Assembly (NCBI GenBank): GCA_018401955.1
Contig: JAGYJT010000006.1
Location: 10,351-74,350 of the forward strand
Source: Chitinophagales bacterium
Lineage (GTDB): Bacteria; Bacteroidota; Bacteroidia; Chitinophagales; CAIOSU01
Reading direction: 5' to 3'
Length of the DNA stretch: 64,000 nucleotides
The notes beneath the pieces were generated by a model that made no database searches, was not told the origin of the DNA, and saw only the letters and a program-made list of their open reading frames with translations. The position numbers and the translations under genes are program-made. Shown piece by piece: positions 35,101 to 44,154 of the stretch; positions within the stretch are counted from its first letter, which is position 1; every line of letters starts with the position of its first letter.

Positions 35101-36279
35101 CTACACCACCGCCACAAACAACCTATTCTCCTTGCCCTGCAGCGCATATAGCGAGGCGAAGGCGACTTCGGCAATGAGGTACTTTGCGCGGGGAGAGGTG
35201 TATTGCTCTATCACTTCTTTAATGTCCAAAGGTTCCAGTTCGGTGTCGTGGGTGTAGCGTATGTATAGGCGCAGCGTGAAGTCGGTGTGCAGTTGGTGCA
35301 GGCCGTGGCCGTTGGCTGCTATGTTTTGGTGCAGCTTTTTGTACTCGTAGCGGTATTGGTGGCTTAGTGCCGCCACATCGCTTAGCACGGCCGCGCCGGT
35401 AGGGTAGCTGCCTGCCCCCTTGCCCACCAGCAGTTGCTTGCCCGAAAATGCCCCATCTATCTCCACGGCGTTGTATTCGTTGTCGATGTTGATGAGGTTG
35501 CTCTCGGTGCCCACAAAGCGGGGCAGCACGTATGCTTGCAGTTGGTTGCCGTTGCGGGCGGCGTAGGCCACCAGCTTAATGCGCTGACCTTTGAGGGCGG
35601 CATGTTCAATATCAAATGCCGAAATGTTTTGTATGCCCAGGTTGAGCACTTCTTCGGGCTTGAAAATTACGCCAAAGGCATGCACCACCAGCAGCACCAG
35701 TTTGTATTTCGGGTCGAAGCCTGCTACATCGAGCCACGGGTCTATTTCGGCAAAGCCGAGCTCTTGGGCTTGTGCCAGGGCGGTAGCATAGTCCAGCCCG
35801 TCCTTATCCATGCGGGTGAGGATGTAGTTGCTGCTGCCATTGATGATGCCGCTGATGCTGTTAAGCGACTCGGTATCGTAGTACTCCTCCAAGTTGCGGA
35901 TGATGGGGATGCTGCCCGCGCAAGCACCCTCGTATAACAACGCCACGCTAAATTTTTGCTGCAATTGGAAGAGGGTGCTGAAGTGCTCGGCCAGCAGTTT
36001 TTTATTGGCTGATACTACGTGCAGCCCGCGCTGTATGGCCGTGCGCACAATATCGAGGGCATCTTCGGCATTGTCTACCAGTTCTACAATGGCCTGTATG
36101 TCGTTGCGGCCCAGTATCTCTAGGCTGTCAAACGAGAAATGGTCGAGGGCGATTTTGCGCGGTTTGTGGCGGTTTTTTACGCCAATTTTTTGGATGCCGG
36201 CCTTAAAGCCGTGGCTTTGCCCAAGGGCATCATAGAGTCCCTGGCCCACGCATCCAAATCCGAAAAGTGCTATCTTCAT
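35101..36279 (-). CDS. hom: Homoserine dehydrogenase
   Basis: GFGCVG, VVSANK, YEGACAGSIPII, GIINGSSNYIL, AQELGFAE, GKGAG. Confidence 0.93.
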   Translation of the reverse strand: MKIALFGFGCVGQGLYDALGQSHGFKAGIQKIGVKNRHKPRKIALDHFSFDSLEILGRNDIQAIVELVDNAEDALDIVRTAIQRGLHVVSANKKLLAEHFSTLFQLQQKFSVALLYEGACAGSIPIIRNLEEYYDTESLNSISGIINGSSNYILTRMDKDGLDYATALAQAQELGFAEIDPWLDVAGFDPKYKLVLLVVHAFGVIFKPEEVLNLGIQNISAFDIEHAALKGQRIKLVAYAARNGNQLQAYVLPRFVGTESNLINIDNEYNAVEIDGAFSGKQLLVGKGAGSYPTGAAVLSDVAALSHQYRYEYKKLHQNIAANGHGLHQLHTDFTLRLYIRYTHDTELEPLDIKEVIEQYTSPRAKYLIAEVAFASLYALQGKENRLFVAVV

Positions 36280-36495: not shown

Positions 36496-37557
36496 TCAAT
36501 CGTATTTCGTACCTCGTAAATCGTAAATCGGCACATCTTGATACTCGGTAACAAACTCCTCCAGCAACCCACTCAAGGCTTCAAACTCCAATAAAAAGCC
36601 ATCATGCCCATATATGGACGTGATGCTTTTGTGGATGCCGTTTTGAACGTTATCTGCAATAAACGCTTGCTCGTGGGGCGGAAACAACAAATCGCTGGTA
36701 ATGCTTACTGCCAACAATGGGGTAGTGATGGTGGCCAATGTTTCGGTTAACTCACCGCCTCGTCCTCGGCTTATGTTATGGCTATCCATGGCCTTGCTTA
36801 ATGCATAGTAGCTAAAGGCATTGAACCGTTTGGCGAGCTTTTCGCCTTGGTAGCGTTGGTAGCTGCTGGCTTTATAACCTTCAATTTTACCAGCATCGTC
36901 AAGTTGCGTTAAGTGGTAGGTGTCGTATGAGCGATAGGAAAGCATGGCAATGGAGCGCGCTATTTTAAGGCCGTTTAAGCCCGCTTCGGCATTGCTGTTT
37001 TTCCAGGTAGGGTCTTGTTCAATGGCTAGGCGCTGGCTCTCATTAAAAGCAACGCCCCACGGTGAGTGCCTGGCGCTTGTGGCAATTACTGCGGCTTGAT
37101 TAAAAACACCCGGTTCGCGCACGAGCCACTCCAACAATTGGTGCCCGCCCAATGAGCCCGCAATGCCCAAGTGTATGTGCTCGATGCCCAAATGCTGGCG
37201 CAGCAACACATGTGCCTCCACCATATCCTTTACCGTTACCAAAGGGAAACTATGATAGTATGGTTCAAAGGTTTCGGGGTTGATGCTCAGCGGCCCAGTG
37301 GTACCATAGCACGAGCCAAGTATGTTGGCGCAAACGATGAAGTACTTTTGCGGGTCGATGAACTTGCCTTCGCCCACCAAGCCATCCCACCAATCGGCGG
37401 CATCGGCATTGGCAGTAAGGGCGTGGCAAATCCATACTACATTGTCTTTAGCTGGGCTAAGAGTGCCGTAGGTATGGTAAACCACTTCAGGCCGGAGCAG
37501 CGTTTCACCGCTCTCCAGCCTAAGGGTATGGGGTATTTTAAACTTGTGTTCAGCCAT
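36496..37557 (-). CDS. metX: Homoserine O-acetyltransferase
   Basis: ICHALT, NILGSCYGTTGP, GSLGG nucleophile, SDLLFP, YGHDGFL. Confidence 0.93.
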   Translation of the reverse strand: MAEHKFKIPHTLRLESGETLLRPEVVYHTYGTLSPAKDNVVWICHALTANADAADWWDGLVGEGKFIDPQKYFIVCANILGSCYGTTGPLSINPETFEPYYHSFPLVTVKDMVEAHVLLRQHLGIEHIHLGIAGSLGGHQLLEWLVREPGVFNQAAVIATSARHSPWGVAFNESQRLAIEQDPTWKNSNAEAGLNGLKIARSIAMLSYRSYDTYHLTQLDDAGKIEGYKASSYQRYQGEKLAKRFNAFSYYALSKAMDSHNISRGRGGELTETLATITTPLLAVSITSDLLFPPHEQAFIADNVQNGIHKSITSIYGHDGFLLEFEALSGLLEEFVTEYQDVPIYDLRGTKYD

Positions 37558-37660
37558 TATGTTAATTTGAAAATTTGAAGATGAGTTAATTTGAAAATGG
37601 CTTTACGGAGCGGTAAAAACCATTTTCAAATTTTCAAATTGCCTCATTTCCAAGTTGGGT

Positions 37661-38998
<1,338 letters not shown>

Positions 38999-39042
38999 TT
39001 ATTGGTTTTTAAAAGTTGATTTATAATGGTTGAATTGGGTTG

Positions 39043-39082
39043 AAAAAGAAAAACCCGGCTCGGATAGGCTCCGGCCGGGTTT
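39043..39082 (-). terminator. Attenuator terminator upstream of metY
   Basis: Minus strand AAACCCGGC-CGGA-GCCTA-TCCG-A-GCCGGGTTT followed by TTCTTTTT. Confidence 0.85.
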
Positions 39083-39105
39083 AGAATATGCACCACGCTA
39101 AACGT

Positions 39106-39183
39106 TTACATACACCAATACCTGTCCGGTTGCCGGGGCGGGCAACAACAACAGCACATCATGGTTTGGGTGTATTGGTTCAT
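39106..39183 (-). CDS. Leader peptide MNQYTQTMMCCCCCPPRQPDRYWCM (not in ORF track)
   Basis: ATG at 39183, ATG ATG then five Cys codons, TAA at 39106, directly before a terminator and metY. Confidence 0.8.
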   Translation of the reverse strand: MNQYTQTMMCCCCCPPRQPDRYWCM

Positions 39184-39268
39184 TGGTAACTTGTTATAGG
39201 TTAATGGTTGAATTCAAAATTTAAAATTGAAAATTGCATTGTTCTTGTTTTGATCCTTGATACTAAAA

Positions 39269-40429
39269 TCAGTACTTCGCCAAGCTAGTATCCACCTCAT
39301 CGGCGTAGGCCAATATGCCACCTTTGAGGTTGTAAAGGTTATCATAGCCAAACTGGGTTTCCAGTAGGCGAACGGCATTGGCGCTACGGGCACCACTGCG
39401 GCAATGTATAATTACTTGCTTGCCCTTGGCAATACGCTCTGCATTGGCAGGCACCGTAGCTAAAGGAATCAATTCGGCACCCAAGTTGGCAAGGTTAGCA
39501 ATCTCATATTCGTACTCTTCGCGCACGTCAATCAATTGGAAATCGGCACCTTGGTCTTTTAAGGCTTTCAGTTCGGTTACGGTTATCTCTTTCACGGTAT
39601 TGTCTTTTTTAGCCTCGGTAGCGGCTGGTTTTTCAATACCACAAAATTGCTCATAATCAATCAGTTTTTCAATCTTTGGGGTGTTCGGGTCTTTCTTGAA
39701 TTTGAGTGTGCGGCTCTCAAAGCTCAGCGCATCAAACAAATACAACCGGCCCACCAAAGGTTCGCCCACGCCAGTAATTACCTTAATCACCTCACTGGCT
39801 TGCAAGCTGCCGATAATGCCAGGCAACACGCCCAATACGCCACCTTCGGCACAGCTAGGTACAAGGCCCGGTGGCGGCGGGGTAGGGTATAGGTCGCGGT
39901 ACTGCGGACCAAAAGTGCCATCGGCATATTTGTAATTAAACACGGTTACCTGCCCATCGAAACGGAAGATAGAAGCATACACGTTGGTTTTGCCTTGTAT
40001 CACGGCCGCATCGTTTACCAAGTATCGGGTAGGGAAGTTATCCGTACCATCGGCTACTAAATCATAGTCTTTTAACAGCTCCAATGCGTTGCTGCTATGA
40101 AACTGCGTGTTGTAGGTATTGATGGTAATGTATGGATTTAAGGCGCGCAACCTATCGGCGGCGGCTTCCACTTTCGGGCGACCTACATCACCAACACCAA
40201 ACAATACTTGGCGCTGCAAGTTGCTATCGTCAACTTTATCAAAGTCAACTATGCCCAAGGTACCCACACCGGCTGCTGCTAGGTAAAGCAATAGTGGACT
40301 GCCCAAGCCACCGGTACCTATTACCAGCACTTTGGCTTCTTTCAATTTGCGCTGCCCCTCCATACCAAATTCTGGTATAATGATGTGGCGGCTATATCGT
40401 TCTAGTTCTTGTTTACTGAAATTCGACAT
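39269..40429 (-). CDS. moeZ: MoeZ/MoeB-type E1-like adenylyltransferase with C-terminal rhodanese domain
   Basis: RYSRH, GTGGLG, SNLQRQ, DGTDNFPTRY, SCAEGGVLG, rhodanese HCRSGARS. Confidence 0.9.
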   Translation of the reverse strand: MSNFSKQELERYSRHIIIPEFGMEGQRKLKEAKVLVIGTGGLGSPLLLYLAAAGVGTLGIVDFDKVDDSNLQRQVLFGVGDVGRPKVEAAADRLRALNPYITINTYNTQFHSSNALELLKDYDLVADGTDNFPTRYLVNDAAVIQGKTNVYASIFRFDGQVTVFNYKYADGTFGPQYRDLYPTPPPPGLVPSCAEGGVLGVLPGIIGSLQASEVIKVITGVGEPLVGRLYLFDALSFESRTLKFKKDPNTPKIEKLIDYEQFCGIEKPAATEAKKDNTVKEITVTELKALKDQGADFQLIDVREEYEYEIANLANLGAELIPLATVPANAERIAKGKQVIIHCRSGARSANAVRLLETQFGYDNLYNLKGGILAYADEVDTSLAKY

Positions 40430-40508
40430 GCGTCTTAGTTCAAAATTTAAAATTCAAAATTCAAAATTGTTTTTTTACCATGGACCATCGACTATGGACC
40501 ATGGACTA

Positions 40509-40784
40509 TTAGCAGCCTCCCGCAATGGCAGGTACTATGCTTATTACGGTTCCGCTCTCTACTGCGGTAGCATTGTTATCAAGGTCTTTTATATCGTCTT
40601 CGCCTACAAACACCTTGATAAATTGGCGCACCTGTCCGTTATCATCAAATAGATGGCCTTTTACGCCTGGGTACGTGGTTGTCAATTCGTTCAATGCCTC
40701 GCCCACGTTGCCGGAGGTAGCTTGAAAGCTGCTCTGGTTATCGGTAAACTTACGTAGCGGTGTAGGTATGATAATTTTTGCCAT
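40509..40784 (-). CDS. cysO: Ubiquitin-like sulfur carrier (MoaD/ThiS/CysO family) ending AGG-C
   Basis: IPTPLRKFT..., ISIVPAIAGGC*. Confidence 0.85.
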   Translation of the reverse strand: MAKIIIPTPLRKFTDNQSSFQATSGNVGEALNELTTTYPGVKGHLFDDNGQVRQFIKVFVGEDDIKDLDNNATAVESGTVISIVPAIAGGC

Positions 40785-40841
40785 GGGGTTTGTTATTGGT
40801 TATAGGGTTATTTGTTATTGGTTTATTTGTAATTCGTATTC

Positions 40842-40939
40842 GAACCTTGATTTTTTTGATTCCCGTTATTTGAAAAGGATTTTTACATACTATGGTATAA
40901 TCCTTTTCTAATCCATAAATCCTTTCAAAATCATGGTTC
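40842..40939. repeat. ~98-bp MITE-like element, copy 2
   Basis: GAACCTTGATTT...AAAAGGATT...AATCCTTTT...AAATCATGGTTC. Confidence 0.8.
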
Positions 40940-40942
40940 AAA

Positions 40943-41419
40943 CTATTGGTTAAAGTTCGACAGCAACGCATCCACGTCAAAAGGGTTGTTTTGGTTAATT
41001 ACCTTTTCCTCCTCAAAGCGACCTTGATCATTCAGTTTCCAAGAAAGTACCGCCGCCGTTTTTGCTTTTTTTACTGATACAATAATGTACGAGAAGTAAG
41101 GCAATGCTTGGCGCAAATCGTGCTCGCTCGGTATGGCTGCGTGCTCTGGGTGGCTGTGGTACACGCCCAGCAGTGTTAGGCCATTTTCATCAGCATACTG
41201 CTCGGCTTTCATGTAATCAATTGATGAAATTTCAAACCTTCGTTCACGGTTTTCCTCTTTGGTATTTACTACTGGTATTGCTTCAGTAACAATTCGCTTA
41301 TCATCATCACTGCCATAAAAAAAACCGCAGCACTCGTGAGGGTAAGTGCTCTCAGCATCTTTAATAATCACTTTTCGTGCATCCTCAGTAAGTATCAGTT
41401 CACTCATCTTTTGGTCCAT
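40943..41419 (-). CDS. mec: JAMM/M67 metallopeptidase (Mec-like CysO-Cys carboxypeptidase)
   Basis: YPHECCG, GVYHSHP, PSEHD JAMM motif. Confidence 0.9.
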   Translation of the reverse strand: MDQKMSELILTEDARKVIIKDAESTYPHECCGFFYGSDDDKRIVTEAIPVVNTKEENRERRFEISSIDYMKAEQYADENGLTLLGVYHSHPEHAAIPSEHDLRQALPYFSYIIVSVKKAKTAAVLSWKLNDQGRFEEEKVINQNNPFDVDALLSNFNQ

Positions 41420-41430
41420 TGTTTTTGTAA

Positions 41431-41529
41431 GAACCTTGATTTTGCTTGATTCTCTTGATTTGAAAAGGATTTTTTACATACTTCGGTAAAATCCTTTTCT
41501 AATCTGTTAATCCTTTTGAATCATGGTTC
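41431..41529. repeat. ~98-bp MITE-like element, copy 3
   Basis: GAACCTTGATT...AAAAGGATT...AATCCTTTT...AATCATGGTTC. Confidence 0.8.
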
Positions 41530-41537
41530 AGACCTTA

Positions 41538-42461
41538 TTAAATTGACAACTCCGGATAATTGCTGCCGTGGTCAGGGAAAACCGTAACTACTACACCGCT
41601 ATCCAATTCGTTGGCTACCCTTATGGCACCAGCCAAGTTTGCCGCCGATGATGGGCTTAACAGCAATCCATCTTTTTTAGCCACTTCTTTTATCAAGGCA
41701 TAAGCCTCTTCGGTGCTCACCTCTAGGTTTCTGTCAGCTAGCGTGGGGTCATATATCTTCGGCACTTTGGCAGTCTCCAAGTGTTTCCAACCTTCTAGGG
41801 CATGCATGGCAAAATCAGGCTGCAAAGATATTACCTCAATGTTCGAGTCAATTTCTTTCAATCTGCGTGAAGTACCCGTAAAAGTACCTGAGGTGCCCAG
41901 CCCTGCAACAAAGTGCGTTATTTTGCCACGGGTTTGGTCAAATATTTCACGGCCAGTGCCGTAGTAGTGTGCCTTCCAGTTGTGCTCGTTGCTATATTGG
42001 TCGGCATAATAATACTGGTCTGGGTTGTTTTGGTATAGTTCCAATGCATACTCTTGTGCACCATCGGTGCCTTCAAATCGACTGGTTTCAATAATGTTTA
42101 CGCCATGTGCTTTAAGGGCGTTTTTCTTTTGGCTGCTGGCATTAGCTGGCAGAGCTAGGGTAACTGGTATGCCCAACGCCGCTCCAATAGCGCCATAAGC
42201 CACGCCGGTGTTACCACTGCTGGCATCCAATAAATGGATGTGCTCGTCTAGTTTACCTGCTGCTACCGCCTCTTTAATAATATTGTAAGCGGCACGCGCC
42301 TTAACGCTGCTGCCAATTTGGTACCACTCTAGCTTGGCATAAATGGTTACACCAGGTTTGTTAAAAGTTCCGTTCAACGGGAACAGGGGGGTGTTCCCGA
42401 TGAACGGTTCCAATGAAAAAACCCTATTTAGTAAGCTCGATTTCGATTCTTTGATGAGCAT
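41538..42461 (-). CDS. cysM: PLP-dependent cysteine synthase, CysM-like
   Basis: IGNTPL, SVKARAA PLP Lys, SSGNTG, GLGTSGT, FPDHG. Confidence 0.88.
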   Translation of the reverse strand: MLIKESKSSLLNRVFSLEPFIGNTPLFPLNGTFNKPGVTIYAKLEWYQIGSSVKARAAYNIIKEAVAAGKLDEHIHLLDASSGNTGVAYGAIGAALGIPVTLALPANASSQKKNALKAHGVNIIETSRFEGTDGAQEYALELYQNNPDQYYYADQYSNEHNWKAHYYGTGREIFDQTRGKITHFVAGLGTSGTFTGTSRRLKEIDSNIEVISLQPDFAMHALEGWKHLETAKVPKIYDPTLADRNLEVSTEEAYALIKEVAKKDGLLLSPSSAANLAGAIRVANELDSGVVVTVFPDHGSNYPELSI

Positions 42462-42566
42462 GTGTTTTTGATTTTCGATTTACGAGGTACGATTTACGAT
42501 TGTGTACCCTGTTAACTCTTTTACTTTTCAATTCATTCGCACCTTGTGCTTCTTTTTTTTTGATTT

Positions 42567-42616
42567 CCGGTATTCGGGCCCTGTATTCTTTCGAACCAGC
42601 AGGGCCCGAATACCGG
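42567..42616. repeat. Perfect 17-bp inverted repeat between prx and cysM
   Basis: CCGGTATTCGGGCCCTG / CAGGGCCCGAATACCGG, 16-nt loop. Confidence 0.85.
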
Positions 42617-42712
42617 TCAATCATGACAATTATTGACAAACCATTATTTCAAATGACAGATATGAGATGAGAGATGAAAAATATTTTTGCTGACACACTC
42701 ACCTCACTGTCG

Positions 42713-43381
42713 TTAACTTAGTTCTTTTTTTGAGAGGTAGAAATCTACTTTCTCGTAAGTAGCATTCGCAAGGCGCTCTTCCACTTCTACCAAGGTTTTT
42801 GGTGGCGGCACAATTACTTTATCACCTGGGCGCCAGTTGGCTGGTAGAGCAACGCTGTGCTTATCGGCCGTTTGTAATGCCTCTATAACACGTTTAATCT
42901 CGTCAAGGTTGCGGCCAATATTCAATGGGTAATAAATTATAGCACGGATAACGTTTTTTGGGTCGATAACAAACACGGCACGTACGGTAGCGGTTTGGCT
43001 TTCGCCTGGATGAATCAATCCGTATAATTGCGCCACTTTGGTATCCAAATCGGCCACAATCGGGAAATCAAGGTATACACCTGTTTTCTCCCTAACGTTT
43101 TGTACCCAAGCTACGTGGCTATGAATGCTATCAATGCTCACGCCAATCAAATTGGTATTGCGGGCGGCAAAAAACTCCTTTTCGCGGGCAAACTCAATCA
43201 GCTCGGTGGTACATACAGGGGTAAAGTCAGCAGGGTGAGAAAACAGGATGGTATACTTATCCTTCTTGAAATCGTAGAAGTTTAAGCTGCCCACGGTGGT
43301 AACGGCAGTAAAGTTCGGGGCGGCATCGCCAATGCGTGGGATGCCGTTTTGTACTACTGGGTTTTCGGTTGCTGTTGACAT
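42713..43381 (-). CDS. 1-Cys (Prx6-type) peroxiredoxin
   Basis: LFSHPADFTPVCTTE, YPLNIGRN, PANWRPGD. Confidence 0.93.
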   Translation of the reverse strand: MSTATENPVVQNGIPRIGDAAPNFTAVTTVGSLNFYDFKKDKYTILFSHPADFTPVCTTELIEFAREKEFFAARNTNLIGVSIDSIHSHVAWVQNVREKTGVYLDFPIVADLDTKVAQLYGLIHPGESQTATVRAVFVIDPKNVIRAIIYYPLNIGRNLDEIKRVIEALQTADKHSVALPANWRPGDKVIVPPPKTLVEVEERLANATYEKVDFYLSKKELS

Positions 43382-43443
43382 GGTATTTTGTTTTTTACTG
43401 GCTATTGATGGCCTCGTTTCTTGTTTCGATAATGTTGTAAATG

Positions 43444-43476
43444 AAAAAAGCCCTCCCGCTTTGGCGGAAGGGCTTT
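43444..43476 (-). terminator. Attenuator terminator upstream of prx
   Basis: Minus strand AAAGCCCTTCCGC-CAAA-GCGGGAGGGCTTTTTT. Confidence 0.88.
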
Positions 43477-43518
43477 GTATAGCTTTTAGTGTTTGGTTGT
43501 TGTCTTATCTATCCAATA

Positions 43519-43623
43519 TTACCTACACAAATACAATGCACCCTGTCCGCCAGAGGCGAAACAACAGCAGCAACAACACATCATGTTGTTCATCGCTTGG
43601 GTGATATTTGTGTGAGTATTCAT
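43519..43623 (-). CDS. Leader peptide MNTHTNITQAMNNMMCCCCCCFASGGQGALYLCR (not in ORF track)
   Basis: ATG at 43623, ATG ATG then six Cys codons, TAA at 43519; terminator follows; TAGATTAG -7-like box at 43632-43639. Confidence 0.82.
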   Translation of the reverse strand: MNTHTNITQAMNNMMCCCCCCFASGGQGALYLCR

Positions 43624-43737
43624 TTCGGTTGCTAATCTATGACATAATAACCCAATTGTCAATCTTTGGTTCAATTAGTTCTGTTAAATAATTTAGGTAA
43701 AACAGTGTTAGGTGTTGATAATCAACGAGAAAAATTA

Positions 43738-44154
43738 TTAAAAATTAGCGCCGCTAAATATACTCCATATAATAATGCCTATTAAAGCAAGCCCAATAGC
43801 CAACGGCACCCATATTTTACGCTTGGGCATACTTTCGTGGCCAGGAATGTATTGGTCGTGTAGATATTTCCCCATAACCCACGATGTGGCTAAATTGATT
43901 GGGATGCCTACACCTCTGGGTATGTCAATTACAAATTGAAGCGCAACTAATGCTACCATAAATGCAATGCTGCCTAATAATACTTTAATAGCAATATCGT
44001 TTTTACCGACTCTATTAAGGTTTTGATAAGCCATTATACCTCCAAAAATGGTGGAGAAAAAGAAGGTAAAACCCGCCACCGCACTACTGGAGTATATTTC
44101 TGGTGCTGGGGTTTCATCTATAGGTGCATCAAGTATAGTGTTGTGCTGTTCCAT
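43738..44154 (-). CDS. Hypothetical membrane protein
   Basis: IYS..AVAGFTFFFSTIFGGI, four hydrophobic segments; TATCTTTG -7 box at 44169-44176. Confidence 0.8.
   Translation of the reverse strand: MEQHNTILDAPIDETPAPEIYSSSAVAGFTFFFSTIFGGIMAYQNLNRVGKNDIAIKVLLGSIAFMVALVALQFVIDIPRGVGIPINLATSWVMGKYLHDQYIPGHESMPKRKIWVPLAIGLALIGIIIWSIFSGANF

What the first reader, a model, noticed from the sequence alone, without database searches (positions are those of the whole stretch)
39043..39183. Second MM-poly-Cys attenuator, upstream of metY-metX-hom
Seen: a 25-aa ORF MNQYTQTMMCCCCCPPRQPDRYWCM. GTTGCC in the Cys codons pairs with GGCAAC; CGGACAGG(TATTGG) can pair with (CCGGAG)CCTATCCG inside the terminator; a U-rich terminator follows. 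It shares with the other leader the MN start, MMC5-6, the octamer CGGACAGG and a Y-x-C-x-stop ending, which suggests one regulatory module used twice. I saw no SAM riboswitch here. Inference: methionine genes are gated mainly by Cys codons, possibly in series with the upstream attenuator as a two-step sulfur switch.
Basis: partly seen in the sequence, partly recalled or inferred. Interest (0 to 1): 0.8.

Follow-up and report, generated by a model that had tools for sequence, protein, structure and literature searches.

The report
Met/Cys-codon leader attenuator before metY
A tiny upstream reading frame with two methionine and five cysteine codons, followed by a transcription stop signal, most likely lets the cell switch on its homocysteine/methionine genes only when sulfur amino acids run short.

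Summary
A 25-codon ORF (39183..39106, MNQYTQTMMCCCCCPPRQPDRYWCM) is followed by a strong hairpin plus U-tract (39082..39043), 55 nt before metY-metX-hom. No SAM riboswitch model fits the region, even at E<=10. The ORF, terminator and an alternative pairing are kept in three congeneric genomes. The terminator has compensatory changes, and one position covaries with both of its alternative partners.

The best reading is a classical ribosome-mediated transcription attenuator that senses Cys-tRNA charging, and probably Met-tRNA charging. A different register against the terminator's 5' arm is better conserved.

A second lineage has an unrelated Cys leader before metY in 11 genomes, with clear three-way covariation. 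MM-polyCys leaders with terminators also occur across several phyla. In 26 of the 40 clearest cases the next gene is a sulfite reductase, PAPS reductase, cysteine synthase, MetY-type enzyme or CysS.

The mechanism is a known kind: trp-type attenuation, and mycobacterial polyCys sORFs. I found no description of this terminator-based Met/Cys version, which here stands where orthologous metY genes often carry a SAM riboswitch. Whether the two leaders act in series remains untested.

The parts
39106..39183 (-). Leader ORF, 25 codons plus stop: MNQYTQTMMCCCCCPPRQPDRYWCM
   Evidence: Kept in three congeners as MNQYTQTMMMCCCCPPRQPDRYWCM..TMCCCCPPRQPDRYWCM and MIQYTQNMMCCCCCQPRQPDSYWCR.
39157..39162 (-). 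Two Met codons directly before the Cys run (possible second sensed amino acid, or alternative start codons)
   Evidence: Met is enriched next to Cys runs in such leaders and absent before 30 chance Cys runs.
39142..39156 (-). Five consecutive Cys codons (UGC UGU UGU UGU UGC), the proposed stall site; region 1
   Evidence: UGC/UGU synonymous differences between congeners keep the Cys run.
39122..39154 (-). Region 1:2 hairpin: Cys codons CUGUU..GUUGCC paired with GGCAAC..GACAG
   Evidence: Minimum-free-energy fold. The two helices are 84% and 96% paired in 4 sequences, with one compensatory pair.
39115..39134 (-). Region 2: 5' strand of the predicted antiterminator (GGC AA CCGG A C A GGU A UUGG); contains the octamer CGGACAGG (39128-39121)
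   Evidence: Folds truncated before the terminator 3' arm, with a ribosome placed on the Cys codons. Pair counts.
39086..39113 (-). Hairpin B over the leader stop codon (39108-39106); forms the top of the antiterminator
   Evidence: 79% paired in 4 sequences.
39067..39084 (-). Region 3: 3' strand of the antiterminator, made of the 5' flank and 5' arm of the terminator (CUAA ACC C G G CCGG AG CC)
39043..39082 (-). Intrinsic terminator: 13-pair stem-loop (39082-39051) and U-tract UUUUUCUUUUU (39053-39043)
   Evidence: 98% of cells paired, and 3 of 13 pairs have compensatory changes in 4 sequences.
37661..38986 (-). metY, O-acetylhomoserine sulfhydrylase family
   Evidence: Pfam Cys_Met_Meta_PP. 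NCBIfam TIGR01326 scores 687.6 bits against a cut-off of 495.1.
36496..37557 (-). metX, homoserine O-acetyltransferase-like
   Evidence: Best NCBIfam models are MetX: TIGR01392 at 350.5 bits (cut-off 500) and PRK00175 at 329.1 (cut-off 331). It falls just below both cut-offs.
35101..36279 (-). hom, homoserine dehydrogenase
   Evidence: Pfam Homoserine_dh. NF004976 scores 301.6 against a cut-off of 205.
39269..40429 (-). moeZ-like ThiF+rhodanese gene, last gene of the upstream operon; an 85-nt spacer separates it from the leader
   Evidence: No terminator-like site lies in the spacer. The spacer is not conserved among congeners.
43519..43623 (-). Paralogous leader 1 (MNTHTNITQAMNNMMCCCCCCFASGGQGALYLCR), before prx-cysM-mec-cysO-moeZ
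   Evidence: Its antiterminator GGCGGACAGGG: CCCUUCCGCC has z = -4.9, with 0 of 300 shuffles as good.
43447..43476 (-). Terminator of leader 1

Best explanation
This is a ribosome-mediated (leader-peptide) transcription attenuator for metY-metX-hom. RNA polymerase transcribes a 25-codon ORF whose codons 8-14 are Met-Met-Cys-Cys-Cys-Cys-Cys. When Cys-tRNA (and probably Met-tRNA) is well charged, the ribosome runs to the stop codon. There it covers the 3' part of region 2 (AGGUAUUGG) and the 5' half of hairpin B. The terminator 5' arm then pairs with its 3' arm, and transcription ends at the U-tract 55 nt before metY. When charging is low, the ribosome stalls on the Met/Cys codons. This melts the hairpin between the Cys codons and GGCAAC..GACAG and leaves region 2 (39134-39115) free. 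Region 2 pairs with the terminator's 5' flank and arm (39084-67) on top of hairpin B, and polymerase reads through. Shown here: the ORF, the terminator, their conservation, the complementarities, the absence of any riboswitch model, and the class-wide association with sulfur genes. Inferred: translation of the ORF, stalling, which antiterminator register is used, and actual termination and read-through. The leader is a paralogue of the one that heads the upstream cys operon. With no terminator and no conserved promoter in between, the two may act in series.
For: Anatomy.

Riboswitch excluded.

State-dependent folds, truncated before the terminator 3' arm: with the ribosome on Cys codons the 5' arm is held in a -23 to -28 kcal/mol antiterminator. 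With the ribosome at the stop codon only -4.9 kcal/mol remains. The same pattern holds in the three congeners and in leader 1.

Genus alignment of 4 sequences: terminator 98% paired, with 3 of 13 pairs compensatory. Antiterminator 88% paired. Column 261 (region 3) covaries with column 213 in region 2 (UA:2, CG:1, UG:1) and with column 282 in region 4 (AU:2, GC:2).

Arm-pairing gain against 300 shuffles: congeners z = -2.9 and -3.1, leader 1 z = -4.9.

Independent lineage: G020 has an unrelated Cys leader plus terminator directly before metY-metX, with a divergent gene upstream, so that hairpin cannot be the end of an upstream operon. Homologous leaders were recovered in 11 of the 45 genomes of that family searched. 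In all 11, the segment at or just past the leader stop codon is complementary to the terminator 5' arm, about as strongly as the terminator itself. The three segments covary: ACCUUCC/GGAAGGU, AUCCUUCC/GGAAGGGU/GGAAGGAU, GCCUUUC/GAAAGGC, AGCCUUCC/GGAAGGCU.

Forty hits have a leader of 65 codons or fewer and a strong terminator within 110 nt. The next ORF is sulfite reductase in 9, cysteine-synthase-type PALP in 7, PAPS reductase in 4, MetY-type in 4, CysS in 2 and the Prx that heads cysM operons in 3. It is an ABC permease in 4, GST_C_2 in 3, DUF4395 in 2 and has no Pfam hit in 2. Across these 40, the median z for antiterminator complementarity is -1.7; 17 have z below -2 and 5 have z above 0.
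Against: There are no expression data of any kind.

In the window itself the antiterminator is not statistically distinct from shuffles. The gain is -10.7 against -6.7 +/- 2.7 kcal/mol, z = -1.46, with 30 of 300 shuffles as good, because the arm is rich in CCGG. The fourth congener is also weak (z = -1.4).

Only four homologous sequences exist for this leader, so covariation rests on very few events.

Two competing registers exist for region 2.

Full-length equilibrium folds keep the terminator in every ribosome state, so the switch has to be kinetic.

The ribosome-free truncated fold also forms the antiterminator, so the no-translation default is unclear.

The start codon is uncertain. One congener has replaced the N-terminal half of the ORF.

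Whether transcription and translation are coupled tightly enough in this phylum is not known to me (recalled; no call).
Confidence: 0.8

Rival explanations
1. The hairpin is simply the terminator of the upstream prx-cysM-mec-cysO-moeZ operon. metY has its own promoter after it, and the small ORF is incidental.
For: The hairpin lies downstream of moeZ with no other terminator between them. Promoters of this phylum cannot be recognised with the scan available, so a promoter in the 55 nt before metY cannot be excluded.
Against: The hairpin sits about 190 nt past the moeZ stop, with a conserved ORF in between. The spacer next to moeZ is not conserved. The Cys run is kept through synonymous changes. 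In G020 an analogous leader plus terminator precedes metY with a divergent gene upstream. In G012 moeZ and metY are about 26 nt apart with no hairpin, so co-transcription is the ancestral-looking layout. Gene association of such leaders.
Confidence: 0.07
2. The ORF does sense Cys, but it acts on translation or through Rho, as in mycobacteria, and not through the intrinsic terminator.
For: The characterised polyCys sORFs act translationally (Canestrari 2020, bioRxiv 10.1101/834739; abstract and passages read).
Against: Here a 13-pair GC-rich stem with a U-tract follows, and it is conserved with compensatory changes. The metY start lies 55 nt beyond the U-tract and is in none of the predicted helices.
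Confidence: 0.05
3. The element is a structured RNA bound by an unknown protein or ligand, and translation of the ORF is irrelevant.
For: The leader is well folded (z = -3.36). Not all regulators have Rfam models.
Against: What is conserved across unrelated leaders in several phyla is the Cys codon run in frame with an ATG. Sequence and fold are not conserved. No Rfam hit appears even at E<=10.
Confidence: 0.05
4. The ORF encodes a functional Cys-rich micropeptide (metal or redox binding) and is not a sensor.
For: The C-terminal ..YWC(M/R) is kept in the genus, and a similar ..YLCR ends leader 1.
Against: Apart from the Met/Cys run, peptide sequences differ completely between lineages. The conserved C-terminal codons coincide with RNA pairing segments.
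Confidence: 0.03

Closest known systems
Classical leader-peptide transcription attenuators (trp, his, leu, thr, ilv, pheA operons of Proteobacteria)
   Same: A short ORF with a run of regulatory codons, an intrinsic terminator, and a mutually exclusive antiterminator whose formation depends on where the ribosome sits. Mixed-codon leaders (as in thr and ilv) are a precedent for Met plus Cys. The textbook model is recalled; it is also summarised in passages of Canestrari 2020.
   Different: The sensed amino acids are Cys and possibly Met. The host is probably Bacteroidota, which I recall as largely lacking Shine-Dalgarno-led initiation. The regulated genes are the homocysteine branch of methionine synthesis. 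There is no sequence relationship to those leaders.
Mycobacterial polycysteine leaderless sORF attenuators ('Cys ribulon'; Canestrari et al. 2020, bioRxiv 10.1101/834739; predicted earlier by Seliverstov et al. 2005, PMC1262725)
   Same: Consecutive Cys codons in a tiny upstream ORF make operons of sulfur and Cys metabolism respond to Cys-tRNA charging. Several loci in one genome share the device (abstract and section 14 read).
   Different: Those act on translation by unmasking the ribosome-binding site and have no terminator (passages). Here an intrinsic terminator and antiterminator are present. Whether the mRNA is leaderless could not be tested. The phylum is different.
uORFC-8-2 motif upstream of cysS in Rhodobacterales (Brewer et al. 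2021, PMC8632094)
   Same: A uORF with tandem Cys codons in a stem, followed by a terminator, proposed as ribosome-mediated attenuation (passage read).
   Different: It has two Cys codons and not five. It regulates cysS, not metY. It occurs in Alphaproteobacteria. No Met codons are noted.
SAM-I riboswitch (RF00162), the usual RNA regulator of metY
   Same: It occupies the same position before orthologous metY genes. It was found in 24 of 80 metagenomic metY loci and in the relative G040 by eye. It also works by transcription termination.
   Different: It is absent here. In this genome the only SAM-I hit precedes a split metH. The signal would be tRNA charging and not SAM.

Membership tests
Leader-peptide (ribosome-mediated) transcription attenuator | Short upstream ORF with clustered codons for an amino acid tied to the regulated pathway | tested here: met
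   The 25-codon ORF has MM plus CCCCC at codons 8-14 and precedes metY-metX-hom.
Leader-peptide (ribosome-mediated) transcription attenuator | Intrinsic terminator between the ORF and the first structural gene | tested here: met
   A 13-pair stem and a U-tract lie at 39082-39043. 98% of cells are paired, and 3 of the 13 pairs show compensatory changes across 4 sequences.
Leader-peptide (ribosome-mediated) transcription attenuator | An antiterminator that uses the terminator 5' arm, is free when the ribosome stalls on the regulatory codons, and is masked when the ribosome reaches the stop codon | tested here: inconclusive
   It is predicted in the window and all three congeners. One pair covaries with both partners. 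The window's own complementarity is not better than shuffles (z = -1.46, 30 of 300), and a second register competes. The feature is clearly met in leader 1 (z = -4.9) and in the 11 leaders of the G020 lineage.
Leader-peptide (ribosome-mediated) transcription attenuator | ORF and codon run conserved at orthologous loci | tested here: met
   All three congeneric genomes that have a metY orthologue carry it. The same-family genome G012 has none and fuses metY to the cys operon.
Leader-peptide (ribosome-mediated) transcription attenuator | Read-through rises on starvation for the cognate amino acid | not testable with these tools
   No RNA run is listed for this sequence.
Mycobacterial polycysteine leaderless sORF attenuators | Consecutive Cys codons in an sORF upstream of sulfur or Cys genes | tested here: met
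Mycobacterial polycysteine leaderless sORF attenuators | Control by sequestering the downstream ribosome-binding site, without a terminator | tested here: not met
   A terminator is present, and the metY start lies outside all predicted helices.
Mycobacterial polycysteine leaderless sORF attenuators | Leaderless mRNA (transcription starts at the AUG) | not testable with these tools
   There are no transcription start data.
SAM-I riboswitch RF00162 (and the other Rfam SAM classes) | Covariance-model match at the gathering score | tested here: not met
   There are 0 hits in the window at gathering thresholds and no SAM-class hit at E<=10 in 38950-43760. The model works in this genome: it scores 82 bits at G000:C77.

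The most novel reading that the evidence does not exclude
Met-Met-polyCys leaders are a widespread, so far undescribed, cross-phylum class of terminator-based 'sulfur amino acid' attenuators that read both Met-tRNA and Cys-tRNA charging. They occur in Bacteroidota, Chlorobi-like, Acidobacteriota and Clostridia records. In this genus two paralogous copies are wired in series, so that homocysteine synthesis needs two successive read-through decisions. In other lineages the same kind of leader ORF starts 7-10 nt (2 nt in one locus) behind a SAM-I aptamer, which would give a combined SAM plus tRNA-charging gate on metY.
Probability: 0.35. Interest if true: 0.75.

Novelty: new variant of a known kind. 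Interest (0 to 1): 0.6.

Why it matters
Methionine genes are usually described as controlled by SAM riboswitches, T-boxes or protein repressors. Cysteine-sensing leader peptides are documented only as translational devices in mycobacteria and as a cysS leader in one alphaproteobacterial order.

This locus splits control of the pathway. The sulfur-incorporating branch (hom-metX-metY, next to a CysO/MoeZ sulfur-carrier operon) is placed under tRNA-charging control, while metH in the same genome keeps a SAM riboswitch.

The comparative data suggest that many unannotated MM-Cn mini-ORFs before sulfite reductase, PAPS reductase, cysK/M, metY and cysS are real regulators. That would improve the annotation of sulfur regulons in poorly studied phyla. 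It would also offer a simple, portable Cys/Met-responsive switch.

Tried and rejected
RNA evidence: no RNA holder is listed for window 37600-43800. I therefore did not use read laying.

Earlier findings: the search of earlier findings was not open.

Full-length equilibrium folds with a ribosome footprint always kept the terminator. They cannot show a kinetic switch, so I replaced them with folds truncated before the terminator 3' arm.

Its middle block is unpaired in 2-3 of the 4 sequences and it has no compensatory change. I kept it as an alternative register, not as the main model.

A search for five TGY codons in 201 genomes of the order returned one first-match locus per genome. These were nearly all off-frame chance runs without an ATG. 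I used them only as a control for Met adjacency.

The sigma-70 promoter scan does not cover promoters of this phylum, so it cannot decide whether leader 2 has its own promoter. A near-match to the TAnnTTTG motif I recall for this phylum is shared by the window and one congener only.

The MAFFT alignment A3 of the G020-lineage leaders was out of register. I replaced it with a per-sequence duplex table.

Literature: five full-text searches found no description of terminator-based polyCys leaders in Bacteroidota or before metY. Naville & Gautheret 2010 (PMC2965389; passages read) does not mention one. Subscription journals and supplements were not searchable, so prior description cannot be excluded.

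Full report
WHAT IS THERE

The feature lies on the minus strand. An ATG at 39183 opens a 25-codon ORF, MNQYTQTMMCCCCCPPRQPDRYWCM, with its stop codon at 39108-39106. Codons 8-9 are Met (39162-39157) and codons 10-14 are Cys (39156-39142). A 13-pair GC-rich stem-loop (39082-39051) runs into UUUUUCUUUUU (39053-39043), and metY starts at 38986.

The 156-nt leader folds at -51.7 kcal/mol, z = -3.36, with 2 of 200 shuffles as good. The fold has three parts:
- A hairpin inside the ORF: ACCAAUAC/GUAUUGGU on the outside, then Cys-codon CUGUU with GACAG, then GUUGCC with GGCAAC.
- Hairpin B over the stop codon.
- The terminator.

The genes, all on the minus strand, run in this order: leader 1, terminator, 1-Cys peroxiredoxin, CysM-like PLP enzyme, JAB/Mec-like protease, ThiS/CysO-like carrier, ThiF+rhodanese MoeZ-like enzyme, leader 2 (this finding), terminator, metY, metX, hom.
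- metY passes TIGR01326 (687.6 bits against a cut-off of 495.1).
- hom passes NF004976.
- metX is best matched by MetX models but falls just under their cut-offs.

From memory and not from a call: CysO/CysM/Mec/MoeZ is the thiocarboxylate route to cysteine in Mycobacterium tuberculosis, and a ThiS-like carrier feeds MetY in Wolinella. If so, one carrier serving both enzymes here would make sense.

A Por_Secre_tail domain nearby points to Bacteroidota. So do the closest named records with the same leader peptides, which are labelled Sphingobacteriales or Chitinophaga MAGs.

IS IT MORE THAN CHANCE?

A six-frame scan of the whole assembly (3.49 Mb, 153 contigs) found 39 runs of four or more Cys. 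Only the two leaders of this window are ATG-started short ORFs with MM plus C5-6. No Rfam family reaches its gathering score in the 64-kb window. At E<=10, nothing resembling a SAM, T-box or other riboswitch appears in 38950-43760. The SAM-I model does work in this genome. Its one hit (82 bits) lies on another contig, before a split metH with S-methyl_trans and Pterin_bind domains.

CONSERVATION OF THIS LEADER

Among 40 relatives, metY orthologues above 70% identity occur in three congeners (G002, G003, G004), one genome of the same family (G012) and one of another family (G020).
- All three congeners carry the leader: MNQYTQTMMMCCCCPPRQPDRYWCM..LTMCCCCPPRQPDRYWCM and MIQYTQNMMCCCCCQPRQPDSYWCR.
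- G002 and G004 also have leader 1, in the same two-leader layout as the window.
- G012 has a single leader (MKTITIQMCCCCCCETRSAGWLSVI) before cysM-mec-cysO-moeZ, with metY about 26 nt after moeZ and no second leader.
- G020 has an unrelated leader (MIKSFQIIMCCCCCQNKSEGF) plus terminator before metY-metX, with a divergent gene upstream.
- G040 shows what looks by eye like a SAM-I aptamer (no model was run on it).

In the four-sequence alignment, conservation starts just before the leader ATG and runs through the terminator. The spacer next to moeZ is not alignable.

Pair counts on that alignment:
- Terminator: 13 pairs, 98% of cells paired, 3 pairs with compensatory changes.
- Cys-codon hairpin GUUGCC/GGCAAC: 96% paired, one compensatory pair.

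THE SWITCH

Equilibrium folds of the full leader keep the terminator wherever a ribosome is placed, as expected for a kinetic device. I therefore folded the RNA truncated before the terminator 3' arm.
- Ribosome on the Cys codons: region 2 (GGC-AA-CCGG-A-C-A-GGU-A-UUGG, 39134-39115) pairs with the terminator's 5' flank and arm (39084-39067), stacked on hairpin B. The energy is -23 to -28 kcal/mol.
- Ribosome at the stop codon: only -4.9 kcal/mol of structure remains and the arm is largely free.

The same holds for the congeners and for leader 1.

On the alignment this antiterminator is 88% paired. Column 213 (the C of CGGACAGG; U in the others) pairs with column 261 of the terminator arm as UA:2, CG:1, UG:1. 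Column 261 in turn pairs with column 282 of the 3' arm as AU:2, GC:2. One nucleotide therefore covaries with both alternative partners, which is the signature expected of an attenuator. It rests on very few substitutions.

Shuffle tests of the energy gained by pairing the arm:

| Leader | z | Shuffles as good (of 300) |
|---|---|---|
| Window leader 2 | -1.46 | 30 |
| Congener L002 | -2.9 | 3 |
| Congener L003 | -3.1 | 0 |
| Congener L004 | -1.4 | 29 |
| Leader 1 | -4.9 | 0 |
| G020 (L006) | -5.3 | 1 |

For the window itself, the antiterminator is plausible and conserved but not individually significant.

Its central block is unpaired in 2-3 of the 4 sequences and it has no compensatory change.

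The shared octamer has a simple rationale. Its ACAG half is complementary to UGU Cys codons (region 1), and its CGG/CCGG half is complementary to the terminator arm.

INDEPENDENT SUPPORT FOR Cys LEADERS BEFORE metY

A DNA search of the 45 held genomes of G020's family found matches at E<=0.001 in 16 of them. Homologous leaders before metY were recovered in 11 of the 45. In all 11, the segment at or just after the leader stop codon is complementary to the terminator 5' arm. The energies are -8.3 to -13.9 kcal/mol, against -9.8 to -14.2 for the terminators. The three segments change together: ACCUUCC/GGAAGGU/GGAAGGU, AUCCUUCC/GGAAGGGU/GGAAGGAU, GCCUUUC/GAAAGGC/GAAAGG, AGCCUUUC/GAAAGGCU/GAAAGGCU and AGCCUUCC/GGAAGGCU/GGAAGGCU. 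This is strong evidence that Cys leaders before metY are genuine terminator/antiterminator switches. It concerns a different, non-homologous leader.

THE WIDER CLASS

- 116 of the 120 matches lie in ORFs of 65 codons or fewer, counted from the first in-frame ATG; 111 peptides are distinct.
- Forty have a strong terminator (-14 kcal/mol or better) within 110 nt of the leader stop, and a following ORF of at least 100 codons.

Pfam families of that following ORF:

| Family of the next ORF | Count (of 40) |
|---|---|
| NIR_SIR (sulfite reductase) | 9 |
| PALP (cysteine synthase type) | 7 |
| PAPS_reduct | 4 |
| Cys_Met_Meta_PP (MetY type) | 4 |
| CysS | 2 |
| AhpC/1-Cys Prx (as in leader 1) | 3 |
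| BPD_transp_1 (ABC permease) | 4 |
| GST_C_2 | 3 |
| DUF4395 | 2 |
| No family | 2 |

The titles of these records name Saprospiraceae, Chitinophagales, Sphingobacteriales, Prevotellaceae/Bacteroides, Chlorobiaceae, Terriglobia, Blastocatellia, Lachnospiraceae genera and a Clostridiaceae species (titles were shown only for the first 80 loci). Across the 40, complementarity between the post-stall segment and the terminator 5' arm has a median z of -1.7, with 17 below -2 and 5 above 0.

Met AS WELL AS Cys?

The evidence that Met codons cluster with the Cys run:
- The 80 metagenomic metY loci (71-76% identity) were searched only for runs of three or more Cys. Sixteen have a short ORF upstream, giving 14 distinct peptides. 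In 11 of the 14, Met directly precedes the run, often interleaved with Cys (MCMCCC, CCMCCCMC, CMCCCCC).
- In the MM-anchored set, the unconstrained position right after the run is Met in 15 of 111 peptides, against 3.1% elsewhere in the same peptides.
- None of 30 chance C5 runs is directly preceded by Met.

Against an obligatory role: in the G020 lineage only 3 of the 9 distinct leaders have Met directly before the run. The ATGs could also serve as alternative start codons. These counts include related sequences and are not independent.

WHAT USUALLY SITS THERE

Rfam scans of all 80 metagenomic metY loci found SAM-I upstream in 24. Eight of the 16 loci with a Cys ORF also have SAM-I. In the six distinct loci inspected, the ORF's ATG lies 7-10 nt after the end of the aptamer in five and 2 nt after it in one (L227). 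Forty-eight loci showed neither within the sequence held, and several of those were truncated upstream.

SERIES OR PARALLEL?

No terminator-like site lies between the moeZ stop (39269) and the leader. The spacer holds no motif conserved in all four genomes. G012 shows metY fused into the cys operon. This fits read-through from leader 1's operon into leader 2, which would be two decisions in series on the same signal. A promoter in the spacer cannot be excluded with these tools. The two leaders share CATGATGTG, CGGACAG and GTATT(T/G)GTGTA(G/T)GTAA, so they are probably duplicates of one module.

COMPARISON WITH THE LITERATURE

- Canestrari et al. 2020 (abstract, section 14 and passages read) showed polyCys leaderless sORFs in mycobacteria that act on translation. 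They state that uORF-mediated attenuation for cysteine had not been described.
- Seliverstov et al. 2005 (passages) predicted Cys leaders without terminators in Actinobacteria.
- Brewer et al. 2021 (passage) describe a two-Cys-codon uORF plus terminator before cysS in Rhodobacterales.
- Five searches and passages of Naville & Gautheret 2010 gave no description of this class in Bacteroidota or before metY.
- Supplements and non-open journals were not searchable.

VERDICT

The interpretation as a Cys-codon (and probably Met-codon) leader-peptide transcription attenuator of metY-metX-hom is well supported by anatomy, conservation and class-wide evidence (confidence 0.8). The exact antiterminator register and the series wiring remain open. 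It is a new variant of a known kind of regulator.

Noticed in passing
Loci L154, L170, L205, L213, L225, L227, L228, L230 (metagenome contigs): A SAM-I aptamer (RF00162, 61-85 bits) is followed by the ATG of a Met/Cys-rich leader ORF before metY. In the six distinct loci inspected the gap is 7-10 nt in five and 2 nt in L227. This could be a composite riboswitch plus leader-peptide gate. In L225 the Cys codons themselves form the 5' arm of the terminator-like hairpin.
   Followed up: partly
window 43519-43623 (-), terminator 43447-43476 (-): Leader 1 (MNTHTNITQAMNNMMCCCCCCFASGGQGALYLCR) precedes prx-cysM-mec-cysO-moeZ. It has the clearest four-region design: GGCGGACAGGG pairs with the terminator arm CCCUUCCGCC (z = -4.9, 0 of 300 shuffles as good). 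Near-identical leaders occur in named Sphingobacteriales and Chitinophaga MAG records (L039, L049, L069, L080).
   Followed up: partly
window 43634-43662 (-): A sigma-70-like TTGACA-17-TAGATT site ends about 11 nt before leader 1's ATG, so that mRNA could be nearly leaderless. This is only a consensus match, and promoters of this phylum differ.
   Followed up: no
G000:C77:80594-80705 (locus L265): The genome's only SAM-I riboswitch hit precedes a split methionine synthase (S-methyl_trans ORF, then a Pterin_bind ORF). The methylation step and the sulfur-incorporation step of methionine synthesis therefore appear to use different sensors.
   Followed up: partly
L261 (G012:C8:50500-57700): A genome of the same family has one leader (MKTITIQMCCCCCCETRSAGWLSVI) before cysM-mec-cysO-moeZ-metY. 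It has no peroxiredoxin gene and no second leader.
   Followed up: partly
Loci L031-L150 (species genomes): MM-Cn mini-ORFs with terminators precede sulfite reductase, PAPS reductase, cysK/M, cysS (Clostridium-like records), ABC permeases, GST_C_2 proteins (Lachnospiraceae) and DUF4395 (Chlorobiaceae). The last three associations hint at unrecognised sulfur-related functions.
   Followed up: partly
window 39112-39114 and 43525-43527 (-): Both leaders carry one extra Cys codon two codons before the stop (..YWCM*, ..YLCR*). Several Lachnospiraceae leaders also end ..YLCAPNNI or ..YALCTR. A second late checkpoint is possible but unexplained.
   Followed up: no
L264:6660-6740 (-) and L263:7690-7780 (+): The spacer between moeZ and leader 2 in congeners consists of short tandem repeats ((GATGTGCT)n, (AACCAAT)n, (GTAACCC)n) and evolves fast. 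(AACCAAT)n abuts the leader ATG.
   Followed up: no
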